Source of the DNA: an uncultured Candidatus Saccharibacteria bacterium
GTDB lineage: Bacteria > Patescibacteriota > Minisyncoccia > SW-4-49-11
Assembly: GCA_964585065.1 (NCBI GenBank)
Contig: CAZPCB010000002.1
Coordinates: 1,006-65,005, forward strand
Direction: 5' to 3'
DNA: 64,000 nt
Part shown: one piece after another, positions 8,451 to 61,952 of the stretch
Layout: every line of letters begins with the position of its first letter
How positions within the stretch are numbered: position 1 is the stretch's first letter
Notes under the pieces: model-generated
What the model saw: the letters and a program-made list of their open reading frames with translations, nothing else
The model's database searches: none
Told to the model about the DNA's origin: nothing
Made by a program: the position numbers and the translations under genes

Positions 8451-8612
8451 ATTCCAGCCCAAACTGGACCATAAGGACATAAACACCTTAGCATACTTAT
8501 TATGTTTAATCAATATACAGAAATATATCTATTCTAGGATATGACACTTCTATCCTTCAAAGAAAAATCCCTCCAGCTGAGCCAAAGGGATTGAGTTAGA
8601 TTGAATTGTAGA

Positions 8613-9314
8613 TCAGATGAGAGCTGAGGCAGCCAGCTTGGCGATTTCACGGGTGGAGAATCCGATAGAGACCAAAGACTCCTGATACGCGATAAGGAAA
8701 TCCTCAATGAGGTCTTCCCTGTCCATTTGGAGGACGGCCGCGTCACCGGCTACCTGATCAAGCATAATGCGTACCAAGGGGAGATTGTCCCGATTGGCCT
8801 GCTCGAGCTCCTCACGACTGGCTTCAAAATTGGCTTTGAGCCATTCTTGGCCATAATTGAGATGAGTGTATTCATCCTTGACTACTCCCTCGGTGATTTT
8901 CCGCGCAAACGGATCGGCAACAGGTATATAGATGTGATAAGCTGCAATTGCAAAGGCCTCGATGAGAATCGCTTGAATCAGCAAACAGGTGACTACCTTC
9001 CTCTCTGTAAAAGCTTTTTGAAAATTGCCATGTAGGGGCAAGAAAAACTTTTTAGCAAAAGGTATATCTGCTTGCACTCCCAAGTTGCGGGCACAGGCAG
9101 TGAAACCCTTCATATGCCTCAGCTCCATACCCGCAAGGCGGGTAAGCTCTTCAGCCTGATCGGGTAGCAAGCTACCAAGGGAAATGTAATTGTCATAAGC
9201 TTCTTGCTCACCTTCAATCACAATGGCATTAATCCTACTATAGGCATCTTTGTAAATGGCGCTGGTGAAGTCAGGAAGAGAGATTTGTTCTTGAGAAAGA
9301 GCAGTTGTGTTCAT
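8613..9314 (-). CDS. aldehyde-deformylating oxygenase (cyanobacterial-type alkane-forming ADO, ferritin-like di-iron)
   Basis: The strings [71 protein letters not shown].. are close to the Synechococcus orf1593 family as recalled. ATG at 9314; the track start at 9338 is a TTG. Confidence 0.8.
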
Positions 9315-9446
9315 AATGGGTATTGGATAAAAATCCAAGAGGTCATTTTTATTATACGCCGCTTATTTTGCTTTGTATATATACACGAAATCATTGACAA
9401 TACCCCCTCAACACCCTATTATATACGTACTTTCTTTCATATCCTC

Positions 9447-9752
9447 ATGAAGCCAATTACAAGGAGTTCCAGAATTTCACTGATTGTGGGAACATTGATT
9501 AGAAAAAGATATCGTTATTATCATATAGAGAAAAAAGAGGCCATATTGCGTGGAGTAATATATGCTATACCTGGTCAAGTTCTTCCTCACTGCAATGGAG
9601 ATTGGACTGAATTAGAGCTGGGTTTATATGAATATTTTAGAACAAAGGGACAGCCTGGATCATTTAATGAGGAAGAGATGCAGACTCTTACTCGAGAGTA
9701 TTTCTCATCATTGCAAGCAACTATAGAATATATCACCCCCAAGGAAGACTAA
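9447..9752 (+). CDS. possible small hypothetical protein in the divergent ADO/CFA-synthase intergenic region
   Basis: ATG-initiated portion (101 aa) of track ORF 9204-9752; the upstream part overlaps ADO and is likely spurious. Confidence 0.15.
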   Translation: MKPITRSSRISLIVGTLIRKRYRYYHIEKKEAILRGVIYAIPGQVLPHCNGDWTELELGLYEYFRTKGQPGSFNEEEMQTLTREYFSSLQATIEYITPKED

Positions 9753-9865
9753 TCTCTTCCTTTTTTCTTTGCATAATTTGCTATAAATCCTCTTGGATAC
9801 TTGACTTTTACCTCATTTCCTGTTAGTGTTTCAAAGCATACTCTTCGGGGTATCGTTCTTTCACA

Positions 9866-11071
9866 ATGGAGCATTTAACCATGTCTGCTCAGACACGTGT
9901 TGAGAGATTTTTTGATAAAGCAGGAGTTGACCAAACCTTTATTACTGCAACTTCTAAGTTTTATAAAGCTTTCGATGGACGGTTCACCCTTGGAATGGGT
10001 GAATCTTATATCAATGGCAGTTTTGCGATTGGTGATGAGAATCTCATCGAAATGTTTACCAGAATTTTTGGAAGCTTAAATGGATTCTTGCGGGGAGATG
10101 ATTATGCTGGGTTTAGCTCACTGGGATTTTATCGGCTGTATCAGCTGATGAATGCCACCCAAATGATCAATTGGCAACACATCCGTGCAAAGTATTTTGC
10201 GGATATTCACTATGAGCTACCTCATCAGCTTTTTGTCCAGATGCTTGGCCCCTCTCGGGCTTATAGCTCTGGTTATTGGCCAGAGGGGGTGGAGACTCTA
10301 GACCAGGCTCAGGATGCCAAGTTTGACTTGATTATCCGCAAGCTTGGTCTCAAAGCCGGTGAAACCGTACTCGACTTCGGTTGTGGGGCGGGTAGTTTTG
10401 GCAGATATGCAGGATCTCGCGGTATTCGAGTCGTAGGACTCAATATCTGCCAGGAACAACTCGCTTATGCTCGAGCTCACAATGACCAAGAAGTTCCTGC
10501 AATTTACCTTGATTTTAATTTGGTAACACAAAGTGTTGCTGAGTTACAATCAATTCTCAAACCCTATGGGATTGAGAATTTCGATGCTGTTACCTTTATT
10601 GGCTCGATTGAGCATGTGGGTTGGAAGAACTATGCTTCTCTCTATCGCAAGCTCTATCAGCTTCTGAATCCTACGGGACGGATTCTCTGCCATGTTATTG
10701 GATCCTATATTCCATTACCGGTGGCCGATCCCTATATCATGACCAAGATTTTCCCTGACTCGCAGCTTGCTGTGATCAGTGAAATGACCAAGGCAACTGA
10801 GAAGACTGGCTTCCAGCTAATGGATTGGCACAACCTGGAAACAGGTGTTCACTCCTATGCCAAGACACTGAGAGCTTGGCTTAACAACTTCCAAACCAAC
10901 TGGGAAACTATCAAGCCCTCTATGCCTCACAAAGATAAGGAAGCCTTTTACCGAGAATGGGTATTCTACCTAATGCTCTGTATTGGAGCCTTCGAGTCTG
11001 ACTTTGTCAATGTTGGGCACTATGTGTTCCGCAAGACTGCAGACACTCACCCATTCACTCCAGTCCGCTAA
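9866..11071 (+). CDS. cyclopropane-fatty-acyl-phospholipid synthase family SAM-dependent methyltransferase
   Basis: 401 aa; SAM motif VLDFGCGAGSF; CMAS-like length and C-terminal region; GC-rich. Confidence 0.7.
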   Translation: MEHLTMSAQTRVERFFDKAGVDQTFITATSKFYKAFDGRFTLGMGESYINGSFAIGDENLIEMFTRIFGSLNGFLRGDDYAGFSSLGFYRLYQLMNATQMINWQHIRAKYFADIHYELPHQLFVQMLGPSRAYSSGYWPEGVETLDQAQDAKFDLIIRKLGLKAGETVLDFGCGAGSFGRYAGSRGIRVVGLNICQEQLAYARAHNDQEVPAIYLDFNLVTQSVAELQSILKPYGIENFDAVTFIGSIEHVGWKNYASLYRKLYQLLNPTGRILCHVIGSYIPLPVADPYIMTKIFPDSQLAVISEMTKATEKTGFQLMDWHNLETGVHSYAKTLRAWLNNFQTNWETIKPSMPHKDKEAFYREWVFYLMLCIGAFESDFVNVGHYVFRKTADTHPFTPVR

Positions 11072-21115: not shown

Positions 21116-22771
21116 CTAACTTCTATCAATAAATTCTTCTCTTGAGCTGGCATCTGGTTTTGTAATAGTATTAGGGATAAGAGCTGATAATAATGGTTCA
21201 CTTTCAGCCCCTATACGTGCTAGTTCATAGGCTAAATAGCGATAATTAATATGTCCTCCTGGTCGCACTCGAAGTTGTGTCATATAGCTGATTTCTTTTG
21301 GAGAGGCATGAAAAATACTGATAAAAATATGTCCAAAGGGTAATAATTGCGTCCAGAGATATTGAGGAAACCATGTATATTCACGAGTAAGTGCAACAAA
21401 GTCCTGCAATTTGACATAATACCCTTGTAAATCCTTCTCAAATTCCTCGCGAATAGAGGTGAATACAGGGTTATCAGTGAGATATAATGGTAAGGTATAG
21501 CCATTATATAATGATGCCTCATAATTCTCAGTGCTAAGAGTTGGAATATATCGTCCCCATGCACGATGACGATTCAAATCTCTAAGCTCGGAATTAGAGC
21601 TCATCAGTACAAAGCTATGAGTATTTACCCGAAACAAATTACCCATTTGCTTATGATGATTAAAGTCTTTGAATAGTATTTGAGATATAGTTTTTTCCTG
21701 CTCTTCTGTGAGTGTTTCAGTCCAATCTAGTACTGATTTAACACTTGCATTTGGATATAGGGTAAGAATATTCTGAAAGAGAATTTTAATCCCTGCACTT
21801 AAATTAATATCTAATAATTCAACATTGAGATTATGATAGCCAATAGTTTCTGATATCTCTAAATATTGCTCTATTTTTAATTCCTCATTAAGATATGTTT
21901 TAAGTTCACTAAGATTATTGCGTGTAATGGTATCTGCCTGAGTATGACGAATTAAATCAGGAGCTTCTGCAGTATAGTTAATTTCCTTTGCATAGGCTTC
22001 ATCTGGCGCAAATAATACTTCTAATTGCTCAGCTAAATATACTAATTCTTGTTCTGCAGAGGCTTTAAACACAGAGATTAATCGAGCCCATTCCCGAGCT
22101 GAGGTAATATAGGCAAGAGAAGTTTTATTCATAAGCCCTGAGGGGAGAAAATATCGGGTAGAGTCAAATACCCGAGCTGTAAGAGCTCCCGTCTCTGATT
22201 TATTATTCTCATCAATACCATAGCCTTTAATATAGGTACTGGTTAATTCAGCCTGCCAATATTTATATTTATCAAGAGCATATTGTTGTAAATCTAAGAG
22301 AGATTCATTCACCTTATCATAATTCTCTGCATCAGAATTAATACCGAGACTATTGAGTCCAAGTGGTTTACTATTCCCAAAATCTTGATATCGAGTTGAG
22401 CGCTGTTGCCCACCTCCTACACTGGTTTCATTAAAGAAAATTGTAGAATAATGATCGGGAATTTGCTCAATATAGGCAAATAGTTGAGCCATATCAGCTA
22501 CTGAAGAATGGCCATAATTACGAAATATATTGGCTAATTTTTCATTGGCATTACTTCCTGCAGCTTGAATTTCTTGGAATAATTCCTCTGCAGATAATGC
22601 TGAGCGAGAAAATCTTGCTCCAGCAAAAGCCATAATAGAGGCTGTTTGCTTACCCGCATTCGGAAGAGCGGTTCTGACAGTGTATCCTGTGCGAGTATCA
22701 GTCACTGAGACAATAACTAAATCGGTTTTATCTGGGTCTGAGACCGTGAATGTAAAATGCTCATATGCCAT
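21116..22771 (-). CDS. large conserved hypothetical protein (weak ThyX-like RHR..RY motif; unassigned)
   Basis: About 551 aa from the ATG at 22771; the RHRAWGRY segment is reminiscent of flavin-dependent thymidylate synthase but not diagnostic; immediately downstream of dcd. Confidence 0.5.
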   Translation of the reverse strand: MAYEHFTFTVSDPDKTDLVIVSVTDTRTGYTVRTALPNAGKQTASIMAFAGARFSRSALSAEELFQEIQAAGSNANEKLANIFRNYGHSSVADMAQLFAYIEQIPDHYSTIFFNETSVGGGQQRSTRYQDFGNSKPLGLNSLGINSDAENYDKVNESLLDLQQYALDKYKYWQAELTSTYIKGYGIDENNKSETGALTARVFDSTRYFLPSGLMNKTSLAYITSAREWARLISVFKASAEQELVYLAEQLEVLFAPDEAYAKEINYTAEAPDLIRHTQADTITRNNLSELKTYLNEELKIEQYLEISETIGYHNLNVELLDINLSAGIKILFQNILTLYPNASVKSVLDWTETLTEEQEKTISQILFKDFNHHKQMGNLFRVNTHSFVLMSSNSELRDLNRHRAWGRYIPTLSTENYEASLYNGYTLPLYLTDNPVFTSIREEFEKDLQGYYVKLQDFVALTREYTWFPQYLWTQLLPFGHIFISIFHASPKEISYMTQLRVRPGGHINYRYLAYELARIGAESEPLLSALIPNTITKPDASSREEFIDRS

Positions 22772-22772
22772 A

Positions 22773-23351
22773 TTATTCTTCTTTATTTTCAAAATTTTTA
22801 TGCATATCACTTGCTTGTACTCCTCTTGAGTCATAATATTTACTTCCTAGAGAGGCTGATCCATAAGAATTTTGGGCAGGAGTTTTGAGTTCATAAAAAG
22901 CAATTTGGGCTATTTTCATTTCTGGATAAAGCCGAATTGGTACGGTATTAGTATTTACAAATTCAAGGGTGGCATTGAGTTTATTCCCAGGATCAATAAA
23001 TCCAGCTGTGGTATGTACAATTAATCCGTATCGAGCTAGAGAGCTTTTTCCCATAATTTGACAGGCATATTTTTCATTGCATCCAAAATAATCTTTGGTT
23101 ACACCCAATACAAATTGACCTGGATGTATTACAAAATATTCATCCTTATCGGTTAATATAACTTTTTCCATAAATTCATGAACTGATTGCTTGGGGTCAA
23201 TATATTCAAATTTGTGACTATTAAAAATCATAAATTCATATCCGAGTAAAACATCATAACTAGCCGGCTGAAGACGAGCCTCATCAAAATCATTAATGAT
23301 AATATCTCCTAATTCGATTCCCTTCTTTATATCGACATCGGATAATTGCAT
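22773..23351 (-). CDS. dcd: dCTP deaminase
   Basis: 192 aa; N-terminal MQLSD..I..G..ARLQPASYDVLLG typical of Dcd. Confidence 0.8.
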   Translation of the reverse strand: MQLSDVDIKKGIELGDIIINDFDEARLQPASYDVLLGYEFMIFNSHKFEYIDPKQSVHEFMEKVILTDKDEYFVIHPGQFVLGVTKDYFGCNEKYACQIMGKSSLARYGLIVHTTAGFIDPGNKLNATLEFVNTNTVPIRLYPEMKIAQIAFYELKTPAQNSYGSASLGSKYYDSRGVQASDMHKNFENKEE

Positions 23352-42866: not shown

Positions 42867-43922
42867 GTGTTGGGCCAAGCCCTATTATTTCCCTTATATA
42901 TGTCTAGAATATCTTCTCTTGGCACACTTCTTAGTTTGCCTACCCAAATTATATCTTCAAAGGATTCTGTTGAGAATTCTTGTGAGAATTATCGTACTAT
43001 TGAATGGGGAAAATATTCTCGGTCCTATCATAATCTTTTATCCGCTCAATTTACCGCGCTTTTATCTAATCATAGAGGATTTAGTTATATAAATAACTCT
43101 ATTTATCATAATAATTCTAAAAACTCTCTTAACTTAGAGAATTTAGTACAGCAAAGTCTCATTCATCGTCCTAAAATTATATGGCTTCCTTGTATGGACG
43201 AGAGAATACAATATCTCACAGCCTCTCATCATGCTTTATCTCTTGGAATGCCGGGATGTGAATGTCTTATGACTTATACAAATAAAGCCAAAATGATAGA
43301 TGATATTATTGATATTTGCAAAAATAGTCCAAGCATACAAGAAATTATTACTACCTCTCATTCTGACTGTGGAGCTGTTGATTATGCGATAAAAAAATAT
43401 GATAAGGCCCATATAGTAAGTCGTATTACTCATAAATTAAAAAAGAGAGCGGCTCTCATTGATAAAGAGGGAGAAAAATATGCCCTCCATTTTACTCACT
43501 TATTAGAAAATGCTCTCCAAGAAAATAATCTCAATATTTCCGTAAGAACTCATCATTTTCAACAACAAGAATTACATTCCCAAAATCTACATAATGCCTT
43601 TGGGGCAATTATTAATTTCAACCCTCTTCTTAATAGTGCTGAATTAGAGGAAAATCTAGAATTACCGATGTTTAATATTTATGCTGGTGGCCAAAAGCCG
43701 ACACAAATACTCAAAAATATTGAGTTAGCTTTACGTATATCTGCAGGGGAGAATGGATTCGGTAATATCTATTTCAATAAAGAGAATCCTTTCATCTTAT
43801 TCTTCACCCTTAATCAAAACCAATCCCCCGATTCAATCAAATTCACTCAATCTATTATCAAAAAATTACAAGAAAAAGACCTCCCACTTGAAGTTGTGTA
43901 CACTATATTAGAGACAGCCTAA
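42867..43922 (+). CDS. hypothetical protein with a divergent beta-carbonic-anhydrase-like zinc-site arrangement
   Basis: C-x-D-x-R (LPCMDER), then 56 residues, then H-x-x-C-G (SHSDCGA, compare GHSxCGA in beta-CA); the intervening RNAGN-type motif is not seen, so the assignment is tentative. Confidence 0.3.
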   Translation: MLGQALLFPLYMSRISSLGTLLSLPTQIISSKDSVENSCENYRTIEWGKYSRSYHNLLSAQFTALLSNHRGFSYINNSIYHNNSKNSLNLENLVQQSLIHRPKIIWLPCMDERIQYLTASHHALSLGMPGCECLMTYTNKAKMIDDIIDICKNSPSIQEIITTSHSDCGAVDYAIKKYDKAHIVSRITHKLKKRAALIDKEGEKYALHFTHLLENALQENNLNISVRTHHFQQQELHSQNLHNAFGAIINFNPLLNSAELEENLELPMFNIYAGGQKPTQILKNIELALRISAGENGFGNIYFNKENPFILFFTLNQNQSPDSIKFTQSIIKKLQEKDLPLEVVYTILETA

Positions 43923-43929
43923 TTTTTAT

Positions 43930-45822
43930 TTGACGATATTCTTTAGAATTGTTAATCTAACATATATACATCAAAAAAAATATACTATGTTTAGATCACG
44001 CAAATCTCTGTTTATCTTTTTAGGATTTGCTATTATATTAAGTTTTGCTATAGGATACAGTATTCCAAATAATTTTATTCAATCACCACAAATAAATCCT
44101 TCAGATACCATTCCCACAGAATCTTTTTCTGAGCAAAATCTTCATTATTCCTATCTTAATGATAAAAACTATTTTGAAGAAGCCTTTCAAAATTTACCTC
44201 AACCGACAAATTCCAAGAGTGAGGATATAAAAGGTCTTATTATACCTCATCATCTGGTCGCAAAAAAACTTATTGCTAATGCCTTTAATCAAGTTACATC
44301 TGATAAACCTCTTACAGTATTTCTTATTAGTCCTAATCACTTTAATACTGGTCGAGGGCAAATCATCACATCTCAATATGACTGGAGTACTCCCTATGGT
44401 ATTATTGAGCCCAATACTCAAATAATTGATAAGCTGATTGAAATTAATACTACTATAAAAATAGATGAATCTCCATTTACTAATGAACATGGAATATCAA
44501 ATGAAGTTTCTTTTATCAAAAAAACTCTTCCTCAGGCTCAAATTGTCCCCCTTATTATTAAAGATACAATATCACAGAATCAAATTAATACTTTTGTTGA
44601 TAATTTAACTCAAAATCTTCCAGAAAATTATCTTTTCGTTGCTTCCCTAGACTTTTGTCATAATAAAGGAGTTACCATATGTAATCAAAATGATAAAAAA
44701 AGTCTTTCTATTCTCTCCAAATTTGACTATAAAGACACTAAAAGTGTTGATGTAGACTCTCCAGCAGGATTACAAATACTATTACAAAGTCTCAATAAAC
44801 TTGGCTATTCTCAATTTAATCTTCTAGAAAATACTAATTCTGTAAATATTATAGGAGAAGCACCTAATGATGAAATGGTCAGTTATATTACAGGATATAT
44901 CACCAAAAAATCTGAGAGCAAAAAAGTAGATATATTATCTTTTGGGGATATGATGCTTGATAGATATATGCGTAATGCCATTAATTCTAGAGGTTTTGAT
45001 GCTATTTTTGAGAATATGAGAAGTATTATTAAGGATAAAAATATTATTTTAGTTAATTTAGAAGGAAGTTTCACCTCCTTTACCCCAAAACCCCTTAATC
45101 CTAATAATGTACAATTTACTTTTGACCCTGCCATTGTACCTAAATTAAAAGACTTGGGATTTACTCATTTTGGACTTGCTAATAATCATTCTCTTGATTT
45201 TGGATTGGCTGGGCTTAATCAAAACAAAGATTTTCTCAGTAAATCAGGTATAGACTATTTTGGAGAACCCAATAATAAAGATGCTATTTCCTTTATTCAA
45301 TCAGTTAATGATATGAATATTGGACTTATTGGATATCATGAATTTAATAATCCTGATACCAGTTCTGTAATACAAGAAATCAAATCTCTCAAGGATAAAA
45401 CTGATTTTATTATAGTATATCCACATTGGGGTATTGAATATCAAACTCAATTCTCTAGAGGGCAGCAAGTTAAGGCTTATCAATTTATTGATGCGGGGGC
45501 AGATGCCGTAATTGGAGCTCATCCACATGTTATACAACCAATAGAAATATATCAAAATAAACCTATATTCTACTCCTTAGGAAATTTTATATTTGACCAA
45601 ACATTTTCAAAAAACACCCAACAAGGATTAGCTCTTAATATTACCCTACAAGATAATAGTGCTACTTATACACTAATCCCTCTTGAGTCTCGTAACTTAA
45701 TTCCTTATATTGCAGAGGATAATTCTCGTAAAACAACACTCTCAAATCTTGCTGAGAATTCATCTGTTTCAGAAGATATAAAATCTCAGTTAGAATTGGG
45801 GATAATTAATTTGAATCGATAA
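43930..45822 (+). CDS. fusion protein: N-terminal Memo-like (AmmeMemoRadiSam system protein B-type) domain + C-terminal CapA/PgsA metallophosphatase-fold domain
   Basis: The N-terminal half has IIPHH...FLISPNH...TNEHGISNEVSFI (Memo/LigB-like). The C-terminal half has FGDMMLDR..NLE..LANNHSLDFG..IVYPHWGIEY..GADAVIGAHPHVIQPIE..YSLGNFIF, the canonical CapA pattern. Confidence 0.6.
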   Translation: MTIFFRIVNLTYIHQKKYTMFRSRKSLFIFLGFAIILSFAIGYSIPNNFIQSPQINPSDTIPTESFSEQNLHYSYLNDKNYFEEAFQNLPQPTNSKSEDIKGLIIPHHLVAKKLIANAFNQVTSDKPLTVFLISPNHFNTGRGQIITSQYDWSTPYGIIEPNTQIIDKLIEINTTIKIDESPFTNEHGISNEVSFIKKTLPQAQIVPLIIKDTISQNQINTFVDNLTQNLPENYLFVASLDFCHNKGVTICNQNDKKSLSILSKFDYKDTKSVDVDSPAGLQILLQSLNKLGYSQFNLLENTNSVNIIGEAPNDEMVSYITGYITKKSESKKVDILSFGDMMLDRYMRNAINSRGFDAIFENMRSIIKDKNIILVNLEGSFTSFTPKPLNPNNVQFTFDPAIVPKLKDLGFTHFGLANNHSLDFGLAGLNQNKDFLSKSGIDYFGEPNNKDAISFIQSVNDMNIGLIGYHEFNNPDTSSVIQEIKSLKDKTDFIIVYPHWGIEYQTQFSRGQQVKAYQFIDAGADAVIGAHPHVIQPIEIYQNKPIFYSLGNFIFDQTFSKNTQQGLALNITLQDNSATYTLIPLESRNLIPYIAEDNSRKTTLSNLAENSSVSEDIKSQLELGIINLNR

Positions 45823-45868
45823 AATACTGTGTTACTATTAGTATATAATTAATATAAAAACCTATTTT

Positions 45869-47653
45869 ATGGCTGATAATATTGACCCTATCAATACATC
45901 CACAACTCCTGAACCTACCCAAACTCCAATAACTCCACCCGTACAAAATCCTAAAAAAAATTCAAAGAAAACACTTCTTATTATTCTATTTGCTCTTCTC
46001 CTACTCGGAGCCGCTGGAGCAAGTGGATATTTTTTGTCTCAAAAAATAAATCCTTCTAGTCCTACAAATACCACTCCAGCAGAAACAACTAATACCACTA
46101 CAGAGCCAACACCGACTCCAGAACCAGTAACACCTTTTATATCTTGGATAGAGCCTCAAAAAATAGCTTCTCTAGGATTATTTGATACAAAAAAAGATGA
46201 AAATGGAGATGGATTGTCTGAGAGTGATATTAATTATTATAAAGTTGGTACTATTAATAAAGATACCTATCAAGGAGCTGAGATTATACTCGTAAGAAGA
46301 GCTCCTTTTAATCTAATTCCTTTTTCCTCCTATCGTTTTATAAAGAACAAAGATAATATAATATTTCTCCCTTCCTATTCCGATGAAAGGTTTGAAGAAG
46401 ATAAATTAATAAATAGTAAATTCACTGAAGATAAAAGTTTCGTAATATCAGATCTTGATTTTCCAAAAACTATTATAGGAGATTCTCCTCGAAAAGTATT
46501 AACCAAGACTATAGAAGGAGATGGTATAAAATATATTCCTTTTGATAAAACTAATTTAACCAAAGCATTTACTGATACTAAGCTTGGAGACGTATATATT
46601 TCAAAAGATAATACCCCCTCTGTCAATGATACTTTAGCTTTTAGTCAAAATGGAGAAGAAGGTTTAAATAAATTATTTAATAAAAATGGATTTTATATTA
46701 AATCTCCGGATGGTGGAACTGTAATTTATAATCTCGATATTGATTTTATCAAAGGTAAAAGCACTCCTGAAATCACGTATCTTGATGGGAAGAAGAATAC
46801 AAAAGAATTCCTCTCTACTGATATTGGTGGCTGTGGTAGTACTAATTTTATATCTGTAGTTAATGATATTAATGTTTCAACTGATCTTGAGAAAATTGGA
46901 ATAAATTCCAAAGGAGATGATATATATAAGCTCAAAGACCCTAATAATGCTCTCTTGAAAGACTTTTATGATAATAATTATTTCCCCGAAGGTAAAAAAA
47001 TAGCCTATAAAGATTTTGTAGCAAAAAACCCTCTTATTTTCTGGGTTGATCCCTTTAATCGTGTAATTAAGTTTACTGATGTTACCTATATTCCTGCCGC
47101 TGAATGTGGAAAGCCTGTGATTTATTTATATCCAAAAGAGACAACTAAAGTAAATGTACAGGTTGAGCCACAAGGAGGATTTACCTATACCGATCCGGTA
47201 TATCCTGAAGGTGGGTGGAATGTACTTGCAACTCCTCAAGGTAAATTGACATATCTTCTTGATAATAAGCCTTATCCTTATCTCTTCTGGGAAGGTCGTG
47301 GAGGTTTATATGAAAAGCCCAAGAAAGGTTTTGTCGTAAAAAAAGCAGAAGTATATTCTTTCTTACAACAAAAATTAGCTGAGTTAGGACTTAATACACA
47401 AGAAGCGGCAGATTTCCTAGAATTCTGGTATCCTCGTATGCAAGCAAAGCCTTATTACTTCATTAGTTTCCTTGGTAATCAGGTTATGGATAAACTCGCT
47501 CCTCTTAATATAACTCCAAAGCCCGATACGGTAATTCGTGTACTTATGGATTATACTCCTCTTGATCAACCTATTGAAGTAGAAGGATTTAAAATTAAAA
47601 CTCCTGAGCGAAAAGGCTTCACCGTCGTAGAATGGGGTGGAGTAATCCAATAG
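45869..47653 (+). CDS. membrane-anchored secreted hypothetical protein (Pro/Thr-rich linker after the TM)
   Basis: 594-aa ORF; TM at ~35-55; no recognisable domain. Confidence 0.5.
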   Translation: MADNIDPINTSTTPEPTQTPITPPVQNPKKNSKKTLLIILFALLLLGAAGASGYFLSQKINPSSPTNTTPAETTNTTTEPTPTPEPVTPFISWIEPQKIASLGLFDTKKDENGDGLSESDINYYKVGTINKDTYQGAEIILVRRAPFNLIPFSSYRFIKNKDNIIFLPSYSDERFEEDKLINSKFTEDKSFVISDLDFPKTIIGDSPRKVLTKTIEGDGIKYIPFDKTNLTKAFTDTKLGDVYISKDNTPSVNDTLAFSQNGEEGLNKLFNKNGFYIKSPDGGTVIYNLDIDFIKGKSTPEITYLDGKKNTKEFLSTDIGGCGSTNFISVVNDINVSTDLEKIGINSKGDDIYKLKDPNNALLKDFYDNNYFPEGKKIAYKDFVAKNPLIFWVDPFNRVIKFTDVTYIPAAECGKPVIYLYPKETTKVNVQVEPQGGFTYTDPVYPEGGWNVLATPQGKLTYLLDNKPYPYLFWEGRGGLYEKPKKGFVVKKAEVYSFLQQKLAELGLNTQEAADFLEFWYPRMQAKPYYFISFLGNQVMDKLAPLNITPKPDTVIRVLMDYTPLDQPIEVEGFKIKTPERKGFTVVEWGGVIQ

Positions 47654-48398: not shown

Positions 48399-49610
48399 TT
48401 AATTCATTTCACAAGCAATACCATCTTCATCTCTGTCCCGACTAAGTCGATAATTAGGGTCATTTTTAGGGAAATTACCCAGTCCCTTTTCATTTAATGT
48501 ATCACAACTTCCAGGAATATATTCACTAGCTGACTTAGTACTTTGTTTTTTTTCAGTTATAGGTTCTATATTTGGTGGTGTGGGTATGCTTGGTTTTTGG
48601 GGTTTATTTATTTGAGCTTGTAACCTTTCAGCTACAGCCTTACTTGTATCACCATTACAGGTGTTTGGTGACCATAAGCCTTTATTATTATCTCTAGACT
48701 CTTTTTGATATTGATTAAATTCTTCCAGTTTTGGATGAGGAAATTTAGTATAAGAATTAGCATATCCCTGTTTTACCATCTCCGCATTATAGAATAGTCC
48801 ATCTTTACGATATACATAGGCGAGAGTTCTCCCATATTTATCTATGCGATTAGCTGGATCAAATTCCAAATACACTTCTTGATTATCTAGTAGCTCTTTT
48901 GCCTTATTACTCGCTTCCTCACCGTAGCATTGCACAGGTTTACGAGGATCTTTCGTTTCTGGAGTATCTATACCAATTAATCGTATTGTTCCTAAATCAT
49001 TTACTTTTATTGTATCTCCATCCACCACTGCAGTAACGGTAAATAATTTAGTATCTTGGGTATTATTATCATTTCCTAGAATTAATTTATTAACTTCTAT
49101 TGTCTTATTTATATCTTGAGCCTCTTTATCATCCCCTGTATCATAATCAGGATTAGCAATAATATTCAGGTTTGGAGAATTTTTTTCTTCTGAAGAAGTA
49201 GTGTTATCTATTGATACCGTTTTAGTACTATTAATAGTATTAAATGGAATAATACTATTAGAATAGGCAATTGCAGCAATACTAAATAAAACATAAATAC
49301 TAATAAATAGTATACTTATTGATAATAATCTCCTTAATTTTGGCCTATCTTTATTTTTCTTTTTTATATACGGTATATTACGAATACCCCATATCCATAA
49401 AGGAAGTACAATTAAGCATATTAATAAGGATATATAGGGTATAAAGAATGAAGTTATAAGTATAATACTACTAATAACAATAATCTTATGTTTACGCCAT
49501 AAGATAGCTATTAGCTGTTGTAGTTCCGATCCCATCGATTCATTTTGAACTAATTTTTCCTGCTGCTTTTCTTCTTTTTCTATCATACAGTTATATATTT
49601 CTTTATTCAT
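48399..49610 (-). CDS. membrane-anchored thermonuclease (SNase-like) with a C-terminal Excalibur Ca-binding motif
   Basis: VVDGDTIKV..IRLIGIDTPE..YGR..AYVY (SNase fold); C-terminal DRDEDGIACE; N-terminal TMs. Confidence 0.8.
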   Translation of the reverse strand: MNKEIYNCMIEKEEKQQEKLVQNESMGSELQQLIAILWRKHKIIVISSIILITSFFIPYISLLICLIVLPLWIWGIRNIPYIKKKNKDRPKLRRLLSISILFISIYVLFSIAAIAYSNSIIPFNTINSTKTVSIDNTTSSEEKNSPNLNIIANPDYDTGDDKEAQDINKTIEVNKLILGNDNNTQDTKLFTVTAVVDGDTIKVNDLGTIRLIGIDTPETKDPRKPVQCYGEEASNKAKELLDNQEVYLEFDPANRIDKYGRTLAYVYRKDGLFYNAEMVKQGYANSYTKFPHPKLEEFNQYQKESRDNNKGLWSPNTCNGDTSKAVAERLQAQINKPQKPSIPTPPNIEPITEKKQSTKSASEYIPGSCDTLNEKGLGNFPKNDPNYRLSRDRDEDGIACEMN

Positions 49611-49787: not shown

Positions 49788-50924
49788 TTGTATTTAGTTA
49801 AGAATCCTATTAGTACGTCTGTTTTTCAATTATCCAAAAACCAGGTGACACGATTCATAAAAAATGCCACAAGGCATAGCCAAGATAAAATAAGTTGGAT
49901 TATTCTTACCCTCGTAGTAGGATTAGTCGTATTCAGTAATATAGCCTATGCAGGAAAGCTTCCTCTTGGGTCAACTCTTCTTGCTAATAATAATTTAGGA
50001 GGTCCCCTTGATGCATCTCTTGGATCTGTTGGTGTTCTTCAAGGAAATGGAATTCTTGGACTTCCAAGTGATGAAGAGTCTAATACTGATATTCCTGTTG
50101 TTGATACTAATATTATCAATGGTCTTAATGCACCTGAAGGATATACAAAGGAGGCCTCTACTCCTGTAGTTAGAGAATATGTGGTGCAGCAAGGTGATAC
50201 TATTGATAGTATTGCACAAAAATTTGGTATTTCATCCGAAACTGTCGCTATTGCAAATGATATTAAAGACTTAAAACAAAATCCTGCTATTAATACTAAT
50301 TTAGATATTCTTCCAGAAAATGGTGTTGAGGTTGAATTAAAAGAGGGACAATCTTTAGCTGATTTAGCTTCAAGGTATAATGTTTCTGAGCAAACTATAC
50401 GAGATTATAATAATATTGGAGATAATTTAGCTCTTGGAACTACCATTATTATCCCAAATGCAGTTGTTCCTAATGAGGAAAAGCCTTTCCCTACGGCTGA
50501 GCCTGTACAACCCAAGAAAGTTGCTACAAAAAAGTCAATTCCTGCTACCAATGTACAATCAGCTAATCTTCCTAGTAATGATGGGTATTTTGCATTCCCT
50601 ACAACAGGAAATAATTACGGAAGAATTCACTCAAATAATGGTGTAGATATTAGTAATTCTTGTGGTACACCTATTTATGCTTCTGCTGAAGGAGTTATAA
50701 CTACATCTCAAGATGGATGGAATGGTGGATATGGAAATTATATTAAAATCACTCATCCTAATGGAGTTGTAACTCTTTATGGCCATCTTAGCAGTAGAGC
50801 TTTACAAACTGGTGCTTCTGTAACCAAGGGTCAATATCTTGGAGCTATGGGAACTACTGGTAATTCAAGTGGATGTCATCTTCATTTTGAAGTAAGAGGA
50901 GGACGAAATCCTTTAGCTCGATAA
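49788..50924 (+). CDS. LysM-domain M23 family metallopeptidase
   Basis: Two LysM repeats (YVVQQGDTIDSIAQKFGIS; ..LADLASRYNVSEQTIRDYN) and a C-terminal M23 domain (H..G.D, GGYGNYIKI.H, HLHFE). Confidence 0.85.
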   Translation: MYLVKNPISTSVFQLSKNQVTRFIKNATRHSQDKISWIILTLVVGLVVFSNIAYAGKLPLGSTLLANNNLGGPLDASLGSVGVLQGNGILGLPSDEESNTDIPVVDTNIINGLNAPEGYTKEASTPVVREYVVQQGDTIDSIAQKFGISSETVAIANDIKDLKQNPAINTNLDILPENGVEVELKEGQSLADLASRYNVSEQTIRDYNNIGDNLALGTTIIIPNAVVPNEEKPFPTAEPVQPKKVATKKSIPATNVQSANLPSNDGYFAFPTTGNNYGRIHSNNGVDISNSCGTPIYASAEGVITTSQDGWNGGYGNYIKITHPNGVVTLYGHLSSRALQTGASVTKGQYLGAMGTTGNSSGCHLHFEVRGGRNPLAR

Positions 50925-52871: not shown

Positions 52872-53981
52872 TTAATCTCGAATTGGCATTATAAGATAAA
52901 AGAAATCTGGAATATCAGGACTTTTGAGAATAACAGGAGAATCCGTATCATTAAGGTTGAATTGTATTGGCTTATCTTGGAATAATTGTATACCGTCCAA
53001 AAGATAATTATAATTAAAGGCTACAGCCAAATTAATTTCACCCGTACTATGTATAGGTAATTTAGTGGTATTAGCTCCAACTTGAGAATCTGAAGAACTA
53101 ATGCTCAAAGTACTATCATCTTGAATAGTTAATTTGACATCATGAACCGTATTCTGAGAGAATACTGAAGCTAATTTTATAGCCTGTACTAATTCCTGAC
53201 TATCTATATCAAATAATGTATTGAATTTTTGAGGAATAAGTCCTTCATATTGAGGAAAATTCCCTTCAATTAATTTTGATACTATTTCTACCGTATCAGC
53301 AATAATATGTATTTGAGAAGCTCCAAATTGTAATGTCACTTCTACTTCTTCTAGGGCGTCCAATACTCGAATAATTTCTGCTACTGTTTTACTTGGAATA
53401 ATAAGAGAAAAATTTTCTTCAGCAGGACTTGATAAAGTAATTCTCTTTTCACTAAGTCGAAATCCATCAGTTCCAACAAAAATTAATTGCTGATCTTTTT
53501 TTGCAATATATACTCCGGAAATTTCTGGGCGAAAATCATTTTTAGGTAAAGCACCATATACTGTCTTGAGAGCTTGCTTCAATTCTATACTTCCTACCAC
53601 TAATTGCTTATTTGCTTCTATTTGGGGAAGTTGTGGGAATTCATCTGCAATAATACCTTTGAATTCAGCAGTAATATCTTTTCCTTGTTCTATAGTAAGT
53701 TTATCATCTACAACCGTTAAATCTAATTTATCTTGTGGTAAATTTCGAATATAGGCAAGTAAAGTATCTTGAGGAATACAAATAGCCCCTTCAGCTTCTT
53801 CTTTTCCTCTAATATGTACCCGTATTCCAATTTCTAAATTGGTGGAGCTAATTGTGAGTGATCCTTTATCTCCTTGTAATAAAAAGGTTTGTAAAACTGG
53901 TAATGTTGTAGCTCGTGAAGAACTTTGCCGAGCTATACTCAGTCCCTTTAAAAGATTTTCTTGCAAACAGGTGAATTTCAT
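52872..53981 (-). CDS. dnaN: DNA polymerase III beta sliding clamp
   Basis: 369 aa, three-domain architecture, N-terminal MKF.C....L; immediately downstream of dnaA. Confidence 0.85.
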   Translation of the reverse strand: MKFTCLQENLLKGLSIARQSSSRATTLPVLQTFLLQGDKGSLTISSTNLEIGIRVHIRGKEEAEGAICIPQDTLLAYIRNLPQDKLDLTVVDDKLTIEQGKDITAEFKGIIADEFPQLPQIEANKQLVVGSIELKQALKTVYGALPKNDFRPEISGVYIAKKDQQLIFVGTDGFRLSEKRITLSSPAEENFSLIIPSKTVAEIIRVLDALEEVEVTLQFGASQIHIIADTVEIVSKLIEGNFPQYEGLIPQKFNTLFDIDSQELVQAIKLASVFSQNTVHDVKLTIQDDSTLSISSSDSQVGANTTKLPIHSTGEINLAVAFNYNYLLDGIQLFQDKPIQFNLNDTDSPVILKSPDIPDFFYLIMPIRD

Positions 53982-54331
53982 ATCTTCTCTATCTTACTCT
54001 ATTTCTATATATGTATTATACCTTGAATAATTCCTTTTTTCTAGTTTATTTGTTTTCTTGTCCTTTATTTATATAAAGTATAATAGTAGATAGTAGTATG
54101 TGTGGAAAAGCTGAAAACTGGTTTTTGACCGCATAAATACTGTGTGTCAAGTGGGGATATCATTTGGGATAAGTCTCTTATAACTTTGGGGATAAAACAG
54201 AGTGGGAAAAATCTCTGTGGATTAAGTCCTATTTATACACAATAGTATTCACAGAAATCTAGTGATTTTATATAAGTTATACACAACTTATTAACAATAG
54301 TTAAGGAATTACAAAGGAGGTTTTTTCTGTA
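53982..54331. promoter_or_regulatory. AT-rich dnaA-dnaN intergenic region with a cluster of DnaA-box-like 9-mers (each one mismatch from TTATCCACA/TGTGGATAA): candidate oriC segment
   Basis: tgtggaaaa (54099), tggggataa (54186), tgtggatta (54217), ttatacaca (54233 and 54267). Confidence 0.5.
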
Positions 54332-55774
54332 TTATGAAGATGCGGGATTTTCCTCATTATATAATTTATTTTTTAATAACGTAATATCTTGCTCAAGACT
54401 GTAATTGGTTACAATATCCTTTTTTACCTTATTCCAAGCATGCATAACTGTGCTATGATCTTTACCCCCTAATAATTCTCCAATATTAGGAAAAGTAAGC
54501 TTTAATTCTTCTCGAATTAAGTACATCGCAATTTGCCTTGGTATTGCGATATCTTTTTTACGGCTTTTAGACAATAAATCTTCTTTGGTAATATGAAAAT
54601 GTTCAGCCACGGTATCGAGAATCATATCAGTGTTCACAATACGTTGAGAATGAATTTGTCCCCCTTCAATTAACTTATCTACTAATTCAGGAGTAACTTT
54701 GGCTCCTAGAAGTTGTACTCGTCCAATAATTTTATTTAGAGCCCCCTCTAATTCACGCACATTGCTTCGTATGCGCTCAGCAATGACATAAATAATATCA
54801 TCATCAAGATGAAAATTCTTTTGAATACATTTACTTTTAAGAATAGCTACACGAGTTTCAAATTCTGGAATAGCTACATCCACAATCATACCTCCTTCAA
54901 ATCGAGACTTTAATCTATCATTTAAAGTCTTTATAGCACTTGGTGGTCTATCACTTGTGAATACAATTTGCTTATTATGAGCATAAAGTTCATTAAAGGT
55001 ATTAAAAACCTCATATTGAGTAGCCTCTTTACCCCCAATAAATTGAATATCGTCAATAATCAAGAGATCAACAGCTCTATGCCGAGCTTTAAAATCTTCC
55101 ATACGTCCATTTTTGAGAGAATTCATTAAATCTGAGATGAATACATCTGAGGTAACATACAGGATATTCTTATTCTTTTTATTGAGACTATTCGCAATAG
55201 CTTGAATAAGATGAGTTTTCCCTAATCCCACACCTCCATAAATAAATAAGGGATTATAACGAGTTCCAGGCTCATTTGCAACTGATTGAGCAGCAGCATG
55301 GGCAAGTTCATTGGATGATCCCACAATAAAATTTTCAAAAGTATAATTCTCTTTTAAGAGAGCAGTTCCACTGGGCTTAGCAGGGATAATAGTAGGCTCA
55401 GCATATTGATAATTGGGATCCGTATTCTCATTATTCTGCTTTTCCTCTATTTTAGACTTTTTCTCCTTTAATTCTTTATCTTTGAGGTTAATAACAGATT
55501 GAATAGCTTTAGGAGATTGTTTTTGGGTATTTTGAACTACATATTTTACCCGTTTTATAGAACCGGTAATCTTTTGAATGGAGTTTAGAATAGTAACATT
55601 AAATTTATTCTCAAGCCAATCCCGTGTAAAGGCGCTTGGTACGCAAATTACAATTTCTTTATCATCCATACTTATGGGATAAGTATTTTTGATCCACGTA
55701 TTAAACTGAGGTTTACTGATATTGAGTTCTATCTCACCTAATACTGAGTTCCAAACTCTTTGTTTCTCGTCCAT
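54332..55774 (-). CDS. dnaA: chromosomal replication initiator DnaA
   Basis: 480 aa; AAA+ GGVGLGKTHL; C-terminal DNA-binding domain. Confidence 0.95.
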   Translation of the reverse strand: MDEKQRVWNSVLGEIELNISKPQFNTWIKNTYPISMDDKEIVICVPSAFTRDWLENKFNVTILNSIQKITGSIKRVKYVVQNTQKQSPKAIQSVINLKDKELKEKKSKIEEKQNNENTDPNYQYAEPTIIPAKPSGTALLKENYTFENFIVGSSNELAHAAAQSVANEPGTRYNPLFIYGGVGLGKTHLIQAIANSLNKKNKNILYVTSDVFISDLMNSLKNGRMEDFKARHRAVDLLIIDDIQFIGGKEATQYEVFNTFNELYAHNKQIVFTSDRPPSAIKTLNDRLKSRFEGGMIVDVAIPEFETRVAILKSKCIQKNFHLDDDIIYVIAERIRSNVRELEGALNKIIGRVQLLGAKVTPELVDKLIEGGQIHSQRIVNTDMILDTVAEHFHITKEDLLSKSRKKDIAIPRQIAMYLIREELKLTFPNIGELLGGKDHSTVMHAWNKVKKDIVTNYSLEQDITLLKNKLYNEENPASS

Positions 55775-60383: not shown

Positions 60384-61952
60384 CTATTTCATTGCTTTCA
60401 TCATTTGTTTAGCAACAGCTTCAATAACGGGTACACTAACTGAATTCCCCGCTTGTTTATATAATGCAGAATCTGAAATATTTGGCAAAACATAATTCTT
60501 AGGAAATCCTTGAATTCTAAAGCACTCCAAAGGGGTTAACTTTCTAATACCTTTAGAATCCTTAATTATAGGTACATTATGTCCACCCATACCCATATTT
60601 GCAGTTAGTGTTGGACAAACCCCACTTTTATTTTCTCTAACATATTGTCTACGCCACTGGTAAACCTTTCCTTCTTCAACTACAAAATCTTTAAGTCTCT
60701 CAAATAGAGGTTTATTATTGTAATAATATTTTTCAGGAACATCTTTTTCCAGAAGATTAATAATATTTGTGGTTAGCTTTACTGGAGTAGGAAATTCAAA
60801 CTTATCAAAATAATATTTATTTTTAAAGCCTACAATATAAATCCGCTCTCTATTTTGTGGAATATTCCCATACTCCATGGTATTTAGAACCTTAGACCTT
60901 ACATAATAACCTAGTGATCTAAGAGTTTCCTCAATTACTTTGAATGTATTTCCCCCATCATGACTTTTTAGATTTTTAACATTTTCAAGCATAAATCCTT
61001 CTGGTTTTCTAGCTTCAATAATTTTTGCTATATCAAAAAATAAGTTACCTCTATTTTTGGGATCATCAAAACCTTTTCTATAGCCAGCAATTGAAAATGC
61101 CTGACAAGGAAATCCCCCTAAAATAAAGTCAAATTTGGGTAAATCATCTATTCCAACCTTTCGAATATCTTCTACAACAAGTTTAGATTTTTTAAAGTTT
61201 ACATCATAGGTATCTTTACATTTCGCATCAAAATCATTTGCAAATACCGTTTCAAATCCAGCATTTTCAAAACCAAGACGAATCCCCCCTACTCCAGCAA
61301 AAAGATCAATAGTCCTAAATCTAGGTATATTTTTTTGAATTTCTGGATGTATAGATTGATTAACAATATTGCTAATTACTTGAACTACAACACCTCTCAC
61401 CTCAACTTCTTTTCTATAAAATGGTAAAAGGTTTTGATTTCTAGGCTCAAGTCTAAACCTATCTTTTTCCCGATAGATTTTTTTTAGTGTGGCTTCATTA
61501 TCATCTATGATAGCAACCACAGTCTGCCCATTTTCTGCAACAGACTGCTTTTTAATAATAACAATATCACCATCAAAAATACCCTCATCAACCATACTAT
61601 CACCAGCTACTTTTAAAGCATAATAACCTTCAGAGGATCTAATACTAGGATTTACAATTGAAACCGTATTATCAATATTTTCTATTGCTTCGATAGGGCT
61701 TCCTGCAGCGATAATCCCAATAATAGGTATCTCTAGTATAGATTTTACATTTATTTGTGGAGACAAGGTTCTTGCTGAGTTTGAGAGATAACCTTTTAAT
61801 TTTAAGGTATTAATATGCTCATGAACTGTCGATACAGCCTTAAGATTTAAGTGTTTACGAATCTCTTCTATGGTAGGAGCTACACCAACCTCATTGATAT
61901 ATGAAGTTATGAAATCAAATACCTCTTTTTGTTTTTTTGTTAGTGTTGACAT
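60384..61952 (-). CDS. fusion protein: complete LexA-like repressor (wHTH + S24 autopeptidase) fused to a C5-cytosine DNA methyltransferase
   Basis: Residues 1-~195 carry LexA features: an N-terminal HTH, an AAG cleavage site (GIIAAGSP), Ser (GDSM) and Lys (ATLKK). Residues ~205-522 carry methyltransferase motifs I DLFAGVGG, IV GGFPCQAFS, VI ENV, VIII QNRERIYIVG, X GNSV. It is a single stop-free frame with an ATG start. Confidence 0.75.
   Translation of the reverse strand: MSTLTKKQKEVFDFITSYINEVGVAPTIEEIRKHLNLKAVSTVHEHINTLKLKGYLSNSARTLSPQINVKSILEIPIIGIIAAGSPIEAIENIDNTVSIVNPSIRSSEGYYALKVAGDSMVDEGIFDGDIVIIKKQSVAENGQTVVAIIDDNEATLKKIYREKDRFRLEPRNQNLLPFYRKEVEVRGVVVQVISNIVNQSIHPEIQKNIPRFRTIDLFAGVGGIRLGFENAGFETVFANDFDAKCKDTYDVNFKKSKLVVEDIRKVGIDDLPKFDFILGGFPCQAFSIAGYRKGFDDPKNRGNLFFDIAKIIEARKPEGFMLENVKNLKSHDGGNTFKVIEETLRSLGYYVRSKVLNTMEYGNIPQNRERIYIVGFKNKYYFDKFEFPTPVKLTTNIINLLEKDVPEKYYYNNKPLFERLKDFVVEEGKVYQWRRQYVRENKSGVCPTLTANMGMGGHNVPIIKDSKGIRKLTPLECFRIQGFPKNYVLPNISDSALYKQAGNSVSVPVIEAVAKQMMKAMK

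What the first reader, a model, noticed from the sequence alone, without database searches (positions are those of the whole stretch)
43930..45822. Memo-like domain fused to a CapA/PgsA metallophosphatase-fold domain
The N-terminal half matches the Memo/AmmeMemoRadiSam-B family. The C-terminal half is an unmistakable CapA-type domain (poly-gamma-glutamate capsule synthesis family), but no PgsB/PgsC ligase partners are nearby. The gene sits in a plus-strand block with a divergent beta-carbonic-anhydrase-like protein and a large secreted protein. The combination is unusual and its function is open (cell-envelope polymer handling?).
Basis: partly seen in the sequence, partly recalled or inferred. 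Interest (0 to 1): 0.5.

Follow-up and report, generated by a model that had tools for sequence, protein, structure and literature searches.

The report
Surface Memo–CapA enzyme with unknown partner
The gene really does encode a membrane-anchored fusion of a Memo-like metal-binding domain and a CapA-type domain; the fusion is common in the tiny "candidate phyla radiation" bacteria, where it nearly always sits beside a very large, uncharacterised family of surface proteins with no known fold, so it looks like an undescribed cell-surface enzyme module and not a capsule-synthesis gene.

Summary

The fusion is not rare. At least about 90 of the 120 best database hits have the same architecture, almost all from CPR/Patescibacteria, and are labelled "AmmeMemoRadiSam protein B" or "PGA synthesis protein". 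Both labels are probably wrong. The window holds no PgsB/PgsC, AMMECR1 or radical-SAM gene, and no related locus whose genes were scanned showed one. The protein is also predicted to face outward.

The main new result concerns the downstream gene (45869..47653, "downX"):
- It belongs to a CPR family of about 7,600 clusters at 50% identity.
- It has no Pfam match and no structural relative in the PDB, despite a confident model.
- It lies directly beside a Memo gene, on the same strand, in 30 of 36 independent loci.
- A sister lineage with the same synteny keeps only the CapA part and lacks both the Memo domain and downX.

In other lineages Memo/CapA genes pair with alpha-2-macroglobulin or DUF3160 proteins. 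The best reading is an extracytoplasmic envelope-modifying module. Its chemistry is inferred, not shown.

The parts
43987..45822 (+). Memo-CapA fusion gene (611 aa from the ATG at 43987; the mechanical ORF starts at the TTG at 43930)
44008..44064 (+). N-terminal signal-anchor helix (SLFIFLGFAIILSFAIGYSI) preceded by MFRSRKS; predicted N-in, so both domains face outside
   Evidence: sequence; AF2 helix at residues 4-25; 64 of 73 family members have such a helix
44209..44895 (+). Memo domain. Metal-site residues H88/H89, H118, E167-H168, D222 and H225 (611-aa numbering) align with MEMO1 H49, H81, D189 and H192
44935..45600 (+). CapA/PGA_cap (calcineurin-like) domain. D321, E359, N400-H401, H480, E484 and H512-P-H514 are invariant and align with MslH D11, E44, N87-H88, H259 and H295
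45869..47653 (+). downX: the conserved partner gene, 594 aa, 46 bp downstream with no terminator between. Membrane anchor, Thr/Pro-rich linker, beta-rich domain, and a highly conserved C-terminal alpha/beta domain
45971..46036 (+). downX signal-anchor helix (TLLIILFALLLLGAAGASGYFL) after a Lys-rich stretch
   Evidence: 78 of 78 members have one
47081..47650 (+). Most conserved region of downX (residues 405-594): AECGKPVIYLYP, YPYLFWEGRG and a C-terminal EWGGV[IL]x. The second invariant Cys (C413) lies here and the first (C322) lies upstream
42867..43922 (+). Divergent beta-carbonic-anhydrase-like gene upstream. It is syntenic only in close relatives and is probably not part of the module
   Evidence: absent next to the fusion

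Best explanation
The gene encodes a membrane-anchored two-domain metalloenzyme that faces outward, and it works as a two-gene module with the downstream surface protein downX. SHOWN: (a) both domains are bona fide Memo and CapA/MslH folds with their metal and catalytic residues under strict conservation; (b) the protein and its relatives carry an N-terminal anchor or signal peptide; (c) Memo and downX are linked on the same strand across deeply diverged CPR genomes and are absent together in a sister lineage, whereas CapA can be lost or kept independently; (d) in other lineages the same enzyme domains pair with other large secreted proteins (alpha-2-macroglobulin, DUF3160). INFERRED: the CapA domain acts like MslH/PgsA, as a single-metal acid/base enzyme that binds a free carboxylate of a peptide and inverts or otherwise modifies the terminal residue. 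The Memo domain uses its His/His/Asp/His metal site (Fe or Cu) for a second binding or redox step that depends on downX. The substrate would be an envelope peptide or protein, either peptidoglycan-type stem peptides or the partner protein itself. It is not a poly-gamma-glutamate synthase subunit and not part of the cytoplasmic AmmeMemoRadiSam system.
For: - Domain identity.
- Invariant catalytic columns in 73 homologues with 42% mean column identity.
- Equivalence to MEMO1 and MslH residues: alignments, and the MslH mechanism in PMC10406935.
- CapA family as epimerase: MslH (PMC8179263); B. subtilis without pgsA makes PGA with a D/L ratio of 5/95 instead of 75/25 (PMC6029982).
- Topology.
- Linkage: 30 of 36 downX-seeded metagenome loci with at least 1.9 kb on both flanks have a Memo gene directly adjacent on the same strand (24 fused to CapA, 6 Memo only). 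Of 11 close fusion-seeded genome loci, 10 have downX adjacent. The surrounding genes differ between the loci whose neighbours were listed.
- Natural experiment: locus L169 (DnaE 78% identical, same gene order) has only TM-CapA (65% identical), with no Memo domain and no downX.
- Memo-only forms are scattered through the Memo tree, which indicates repeated CapA loss.
- Alternative partners: A2M-like giants next to Memo-CapA or Memo; DUF3160 next to Memo-CapA or CapA.
Against: - No biochemical data exist for any member, and the substrate is unknown.
- The MslH Asp91 equivalent (partner of the catalytic His88) is Asn in 43 of 73 members and Asp in 29. MslH His261 aligns to an invariant Gly. The MslH mechanism may therefore not transfer unchanged.
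- MEMO1 Cys244 appears to be replaced by Ser; this rests on motif inspection, because the HMMER alignment to MEMO1 does not reach that residue.
- The pTM of 0.63 leaves the arrangement of the two domains uncertain.
- 6 of 36 downX loci lack a Memo neighbour within 5 kb.
- Only 64 kb of the genome could be searched for pgsB/C, AMMECR1 and radical SAM.
- Gene adjacency does not show whether downX is a substrate, a scaffold or a co-enzyme.
Confidence: 0.55

Rival explanations
1. The CapA domain is a genuine extracellular metallophosphoesterase, for example a nucleotidase or phosphodiesterase that scavenges nucleotides or phospholipid head groups for a CPR cell with little biosynthetic capacity. 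The Memo domain would serve as a phospho-ligand binding module, as MEMO1 binds phosphopeptides.
Confidence: 0.2
2. The enzyme matures or anchors its neighbouring large secreted protein (downX, A2M or DUF3160), i.e. the partner is the substrate of a post-translational modification, for example at the conserved C-terminus EWGGV[IL]x or at the two invariant cysteines.
For: Partners that show no detectable similarity to one another (downX against DUF3160 tested by hhalign; A2M judged by its Pfam domains) are all large and secreted, and each sits next to the same enzyme domains. MslH acts on the C-terminal residue of a protein-bound peptide. In downX, 61 of 78 members end exactly 3 residues after the invariant EWGG. 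downX has exactly two invariant Cys.
Against: The C-terminal strand is predicted to be a buried core strand, and 17 of 78 members have longer tails. The known partner of bacterial A2M (PBP1c) acts on the cell wall, not on A2M (own knowledge). There is no direct evidence of any modification.
Confidence: 0.15
3. As annotated in databases: a PgsA/CapA subunit of a poly-gamma-glutamate capsule synthase, or the B protein of an AmmeMemoRadiSam system.
For: Both HMMs pass their thresholds, and sources name homologues this way.
Against: There is no PgsB, PgsC, AMMECR1 or radical-SAM gene among 47 scanned ORFs of the window, nor in the gene lists of the related loci for which Pfam assignments were available. 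The signal anchor predicts that the Memo domain lies outside the cell, which is incompatible with a cytoplasmic radical-SAM partner. Conserved partners are downX, A2M or DUF3160 instead.
Confidence: 0.05

Closest known systems
MslH (lasso-peptide C-terminal Trp epimerase, PDB 8gq9) and PgsA/CapA of the PGA synthase
   Different: The NCBIfam MslH model scores 62 bits against a cut-off of 700. There is no lasso-peptide or pgsBC context. The D91 equivalent is Asn in most members, and H261 aligns to Gly, with an invariant Glu two residues on. The domain is fused behind a Memo domain.
MEMO1 / Memo family (PF01875), PCAD-Memo (LigB) superfamily
   Different: It is extracytoplasmic and membrane-anchored instead of cytosolic. 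C244 is probably replaced by Ser. It is fused to CapA and is linked to downX or A2M, not to AMMECR1 and radical SAM.
Bacterial alpha-2-macroglobulin with PBP1c pairs (periplasmic defence/repair, own knowledge: Budd et al. 2004)
   Same: In one CPR clade the Memo-CapA gene occupies the position directly downstream of an A2M-like giant protein, as pbpC does in proteobacteria. Both partners are envelope-located.
   Different: The enzyme is unrelated to PBP1c. Most Memo-CapA genes, including this one, pair with downX and not with A2M.

Membership tests
Memo (PF01875) | Profile match above the gathering threshold | tested here: met
   96.3 bits against 27
Memo (PF01875) | Memo/LigB fold | tested here: met
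Memo (PF01875) | Metal-site residues (MEMO1 H49, H81, D189, H192, C244) | tested here: inconclusive
   The four His/Asp equivalents are present in 72-73 of 73 members. The C244 equivalent appears to be Ser258, but that region was not covered by the HMMER alignment.
AmmeMemoRadiSam system protein B (TIGR04336) | Profile match above the cut-off | tested here: met
   103.3 bits against 26
AmmeMemoRadiSam system protein B (TIGR04336) | Co-occurrence with AMMECR1 (A) and radical-SAM (activase) partners | tested here: not met
   None among 47 ORFs of the window or in the Pfam gene lists of related loci. The whole genome could not be tested.
AmmeMemoRadiSam system protein B (TIGR04336) | Cytoplasmic location compatible with a radical-SAM partner | tested here: not met
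   An N-terminal signal anchor with a positive-inside N-terminus. This is a prediction only.
CapA/PgsA (PF09587) as a PGA synthase subunit | Profile match and fold | tested here: met
CapA/PgsA (PF09587) as a PGA synthase subunit | Operon with PgsB (amide ligase) and PgsC | tested here: not met
   Absent from the window and from the Pfam gene lists of related loci
MslH-type lasso-peptide epimerase (NF038314) | Equivalog score and lasso-peptide gene cluster | tested here: not met
   62.4 bits against a cut-off of 700; no lasso cyclase, RRE or precursor context
MslH-type lasso-peptide epimerase (NF038314) | Two His/Asp catalytic dyads and Ca ligands | tested here: inconclusive
   D321/H514, N400-H401, E359 and H480 are invariant. 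The D91 equivalent is Asn in 43 and Asp in 29 of 73 members (Asp in this protein), and H261 aligns to Gly.
Canonical dinuclear metallophosphoesterase | Motif I DxH and motif II GDxxDR metal ligands | tested here: not met
   The motif-I His is absent (D321-M-M) and the motif-II position is Glu359, as in single-metal MslH
Anti-phage defence systems (PADLOC) | Match to any defence-system model | tested here: not met
   No hit for the fusion, downX or the CA-like protein

The most novel reading that the evidence does not exclude
Memo(-CapA) plus downX would be a previously undescribed cell-surface enzyme system spread across the CPR. Its obligatory partner (about 7,600 sequence clusters) has a fold not seen in any solved structure. 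The system would carry out a stereochemical and/or oxidative modification of envelope or host-derived peptides. If so, it would give the first clear physiological and genetic context for the long-enigmatic Memo domain, and a second natural role for CapA-type epimerases outside PGA and lasso peptides.
Probability: 0.3. Interest if true: 0.8.

Novelty: new variant of a known kind. Interest (0 to 1): 0.6.

Why it matters
Memo is conserved from bacteria to humans and is linked to disease, yet it has no agreed biochemical function. CapA/PgsA has been 'function unknown' for decades and was only recently tied to peptide epimerisation. Here both domains occur in one outward-facing protein, with intact active sites, and are genetically locked to a huge uncharacterised family of CPR surface proteins. 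That provides a tractable system in which to ask what Memo does: two genes and soluble ectodomains. It also flags a candidate core component of the CPR cell envelope. On the practical side, it shows that hundreds of database entries named 'AmmeMemoRadiSam system protein B' or 'poly-gamma-glutamate synthesis protein' are probably misnamed.

Tried and rejected
- The look-up of encoding contigs for the exact window protein found nothing on record.
- Word-start literature searches returned only 'memory' and 'capacity' noise. Searches for PF09587/PF01875 and for AmmeMemoRadiSam found nothing on this fusion.
- The one paper most likely to have described it (Burroughs et al. 2019, JBC, PCAD-Memo superfamily) is not held, so prior description cannot be excluded.
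- The supplements of the Patescibacteria Tn-seq paper hold no Memo or CapA entry.
- The afdb50 fold library was unavailable.
- PADLOC gave no defence-system hit.
- I considered the idea that downX's C-terminus is the CapA substrate because of its fixed length, but 17 of 78 members have longer tails, so I kept it only as a rival.
- I considered a thioester theme shared by A2M and downX. Only one of the five A2M-like partner ORFs examined (one of them truncated) has CxEQ, and downX has no Gln partner, so I dropped it.
- The six downX loci without a Memo neighbour share no alternative neighbour.

Full report
1. THE OBSERVATION

The ORF at 43930..45822 (+) exists and translates to 630 aa from a TTG start. 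A 100%-identical database protein is 611 aa long (P0001). The family alignment starts at the corresponding Met, so the ATG at 43987 is the likely start (sequence).

- Pfam finds Memo (residues 94-322, E 2.3e-27) and PGA_cap (residues 336-557, E 1.4e-56), both far above their gathering scores.
- NCBIfam finds AmmeMemoSam_B (E 1.3e-29) and a weak, far sub-threshold match to the MslH epimerase model.

2. ANATOMY OF THE FUSION PROTEIN

The N-terminus (MFRSRKS followed by SLFIFLGFAIILSFAIGYSI) is a signal anchor with the positive charges before the helix. Both domains are therefore predicted to lie outside the membrane. Of 73 family members, 64 have such a helix. Relatives in Mesorhizobium, Caldisericum, Atribacteria, Prevotella and Marinisporobacter have signal peptides, lipoprotein-like signals or anchors.

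Conservation across the 73 homologues (mean column identity 42%), in 611-aa numbering:
- Memo half: H89, E167, H168, S220, D222 and H225 are invariant, and H88 and H118 are present in 72 of 73.
- CapA half: D321, E359, N399, N400, H401, H480, G482, E484 and H514 are invariant.

HMMER alignments place H88, H118, D222 and H225 on MEMO1 H49, H81, D189 and H192. They place N400-H401, H480 and P513-H514 on MslH N87-H88, H259 and P294-H295; MslH D11 and E44 lie outside those aligned stretches and are matched to D321 and E359 by motif order. These MslH residues are the Ca ligands and catalytic dyads defined in PMC10406935.

There are three differences from the reference proteins:
- The MslH D91 equivalent is Asp here but Asn in 43 of 73 members.
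- MslH H261 aligns to an invariant Gly.
- MEMO1 C244 seems to be replaced by Ser.

The canonical motif-I His of dinuclear phosphoesterases is absent, as it is in MslH.

3. HOW WIDESPREAD THE FUSION IS

At least about 90 of the 120 best hits in the 5.8-billion-protein collection carry both Pfam domains and are about 600 aa long. Those that have a name come from Tagabacteria, Taylorbacteria, Uhrbacteria, Falkowbacteria, Paceibacterota and Minisyncoccia, and are labelled 'AmmeMemoRadiSam system protein B' or 'poly-gamma-glutamate synthesis protein'.

A scan of one genome per species adds Moraniibacteriota, Collierbacteria and Saccharibacteria. Outside the CPR it adds Caldisericum, Atribacteria and three Mesorhizobium species. 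The architecture is therefore common, not unusual.

4. WHAT IS NOT THERE

Pfam scans of 47 ORFs of the window found no PgsB-type ligase, no CapC/PgsC, no AMMECR1 and no radical SAM. No such gene appears in the gene lists of the related loci for which Pfam assignments were available. The outward-facing topology is also hard to reconcile with a cytoplasmic radical-SAM partner. Both database names are probably functional misnomers.

5. THE CONSERVED PARTNER, downX

The next gene (45869..47653, 46 bp downstream, with no terminator-like site between) encodes a 594-aa protein. It has a Lys-rich N-terminus, a membrane helix, a Thr/Pro-rich linker and a large beta-rich body.

Gene neighbourhood. In the first five independent contexts examined it was the neighbour of the fusion: immediately adjacent in four, and separated by one small ORF in L001. 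The other neighbouring genes all differed. To measure the linkage without bias, I seeded a metagenome scan with downX itself. Of 36 loci with at least 1.9 kb on both flanks:
- 30 have a Memo-domain gene directly adjacent on the same strand;
- 24 of those are Memo-CapA fusions (19 upstream of downX, 5 downstream);
- 6 are Memo alone;
- 6 have no Memo gene within the flank.

Of 11 close fusion-seeded genome loci, 10 also have downX adjacent.

6. WHICH DOMAIN IS TIED TO downX

Memo-only partners of downX are scattered through the Memo tree, among the fusions. CapA has therefore been lost repeatedly while the Memo-downX pair persists. In the fetched loci no complete CapA-only gene was seen next to downX; three contigs that break off just upstream of downX (L150, L156, L166) show only a CapA fragment and cannot be judged.

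A natural experiment points the same way. Locus L169 comes from a sister lineage (DnaE 78% identical). It has the same gene order as the window: DnaE, CA-like gene, the CapA gene, Pterin-4a, LysM/M23, ComM, DnaN. At the corresponding position it has only a TM-CapA protein of 377 aa, which is 65% identical to the C-terminal half here. That is closer than the CapA domain of any other fusion outside the immediate relatives (at most 58% identical). L169 has neither the Memo domain nor downX; a GSDH gene sits in downX's place. Two separate changes on either side of the CapA-coding segment would be needed to produce this arrangement. This argues that Memo and downX depend on each other and that CapA can work alone.

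7. OTHER PARTNERS IN OTHER LINEAGES

- CPR loci L024, L027, L028 and L029: the fusion lies directly downstream of an alpha-2-macroglobulin-like protein (1,700-1,870 aa where the ORF is complete; truncated in L029), carrying MG2, A2M_BRD, A2M and bMG10 domains. Two of these proteins have a HINT insert. In L075 a Memo-only gene has the same kind of neighbour.
- Caldisericum and Atribacteria: the fusion is adjacent to a DUF3160 protein.
- Marinisporobacter, Prevotellaceae and Prevotella: a stand-alone CapA lies directly downstream of DUF3160.
- Mesorhizobium: the fusion lies in a conserved cluster with a WD40-caspase protein and a trypsin-like protease.

The common theme is secreted Memo and/or CapA enzymes next to a large secreted protein. 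Memo goes with downX or A2M. CapA goes with DUF3160. The fusion goes with all three.

8. MECHANISM

Shown: the domain identities, the intact active sites, the linkage with downX, and the absence of PGA and AmmeMemoRadiSam partners nearby. The export signal and the outside topology are predictions from sequence.

Inferred from the only characterised relatives:
- MslH epimerises the C-terminal residue of a peptide through a Ca-bound carboxylate and His/Asp dyads (PMC10406935, PMC8179263).
- Removing pgsA shifts the PGA D/L ratio from 75/25 to 5/95 (PMC6029982).

I therefore propose that the CapA domain binds a free carboxylate of an envelope peptide and carries out acid/base chemistry on it, with epimerisation the most likely reaction. 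The Memo domain would contribute a metal-dependent binding or redox step that requires downX.

Candidate substrates are peptidoglycan-type stem peptides (suggested by the A2M/PBP1c analogy, which rests on my own knowledge) or the partner protein itself.

My confidence is high, about 0.75, for the statement 'extracytoplasmic Memo-CapA/downX module, not PGA synthesis and not AmmeMemoRadiSam'. It is low, about 0.25, for the specific chemistry.

9. NOVELTY

The domains are known, and the fusion is already present in public databases, where it is misnamed. I found no paper in the held library that describes the fusion, downX or their linkage. The 2019 PCAD-Memo survey by Burroughs et al. could not be read, so prior mention of the fusion cannot be excluded. 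I class the finding as a new variant of a known kind. The partner family downX is the truly unexplored element.

Noticed in passing
window 7542..11071: A higher-GC island (0.42-0.43 against about 0.33 elsewhere) encodes a fatty-acid desaturase, a cyanobacterial-type aldehyde decarbonylase/ADO (PF11266, E 5e-117) and a cyclopropane-fatty-acyl-synthase-like methyltransferase. It looks like horizontally acquired lipid/alkane genes in a CPR-like genome.
   Followed up: no
window 60384..61952 (-): A single 522-aa ORF combines a LexA DNA-binding domain, a Peptidase_S24 autocleavage domain and a complete C-5 cytosine DNA methyltransferase (E 6e-91). This is an unusual LexA-methylase fusion.
   Followed up: no
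window 42867..43922 (+): A divergent beta-carbonic-anhydrase-like protein: Pro_CA scores below threshold, but the CxDxR and HxxCG zinc motifs are kept. It is conserved at 52% identity at the same position, upstream of the CapA gene, in sister lineage L169.
   Followed up: partly
L169 6001..8372, compared with window 43987..47653: The sister lineage has a TM-CapA-only gene followed by a GSDH (PF07995) gene, exactly where the window has Memo-CapA plus downX.
   Followed up: yes
L024 191..5794 and L028 551..5770: CPR alpha-2-macroglobulin-like giant proteins carry a HINT/intein-like insert next to the bait region. Most of these A2M-like proteins lack the CxEQ thioester motif.
   Followed up: partly
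L058 3597..6960, L077 3468..6834, L079 3349..6886: A DUF3160 gene directly followed by a stand-alone secreted CapA gene is a conserved pair in Clostridia and Bacteroidota. This suggests a function for the many CapA genes that lack pgsBC.
   Followed up: partly
L060 2876..12175 (also L074, L078): The Mesorhizobium Memo-CapA fusions sit in a conserved cluster with a WD40-caspase protein, a trypsin-like protease, DUF4760 and several proteins with no Pfam match. The layout resembles a conflict system.
   Followed up: partly
window 47102..47110 (downX E412-C413-G414) and the DUF3160 alignment A3: downX and DUF3160 both have a conserved 'AECG' motif (AECGKP against KQSxxAECGGG), although hhalign finds no homology between them. 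This is possibly coincidental.
   Followed up: partly
window 48399..49610 (-) and 49788..50924 (+): A membrane-anchored SNase nuclease with an Excalibur Ca-binding domain, and a LysM/M23 peptidase, lie just downstream of the module. The dnaN and dnaA genes at 52872..55774 place the window at the replication origin region.
   Followed up: no
window 21116..22834 (-): A 572-aa protein has only a weak ThyX (Thy1) match over residues 68-271 (E 4e-6) and sits next to a dCTP deaminase. It may be an unusually long or divergent ThyX.
   Followed up: no
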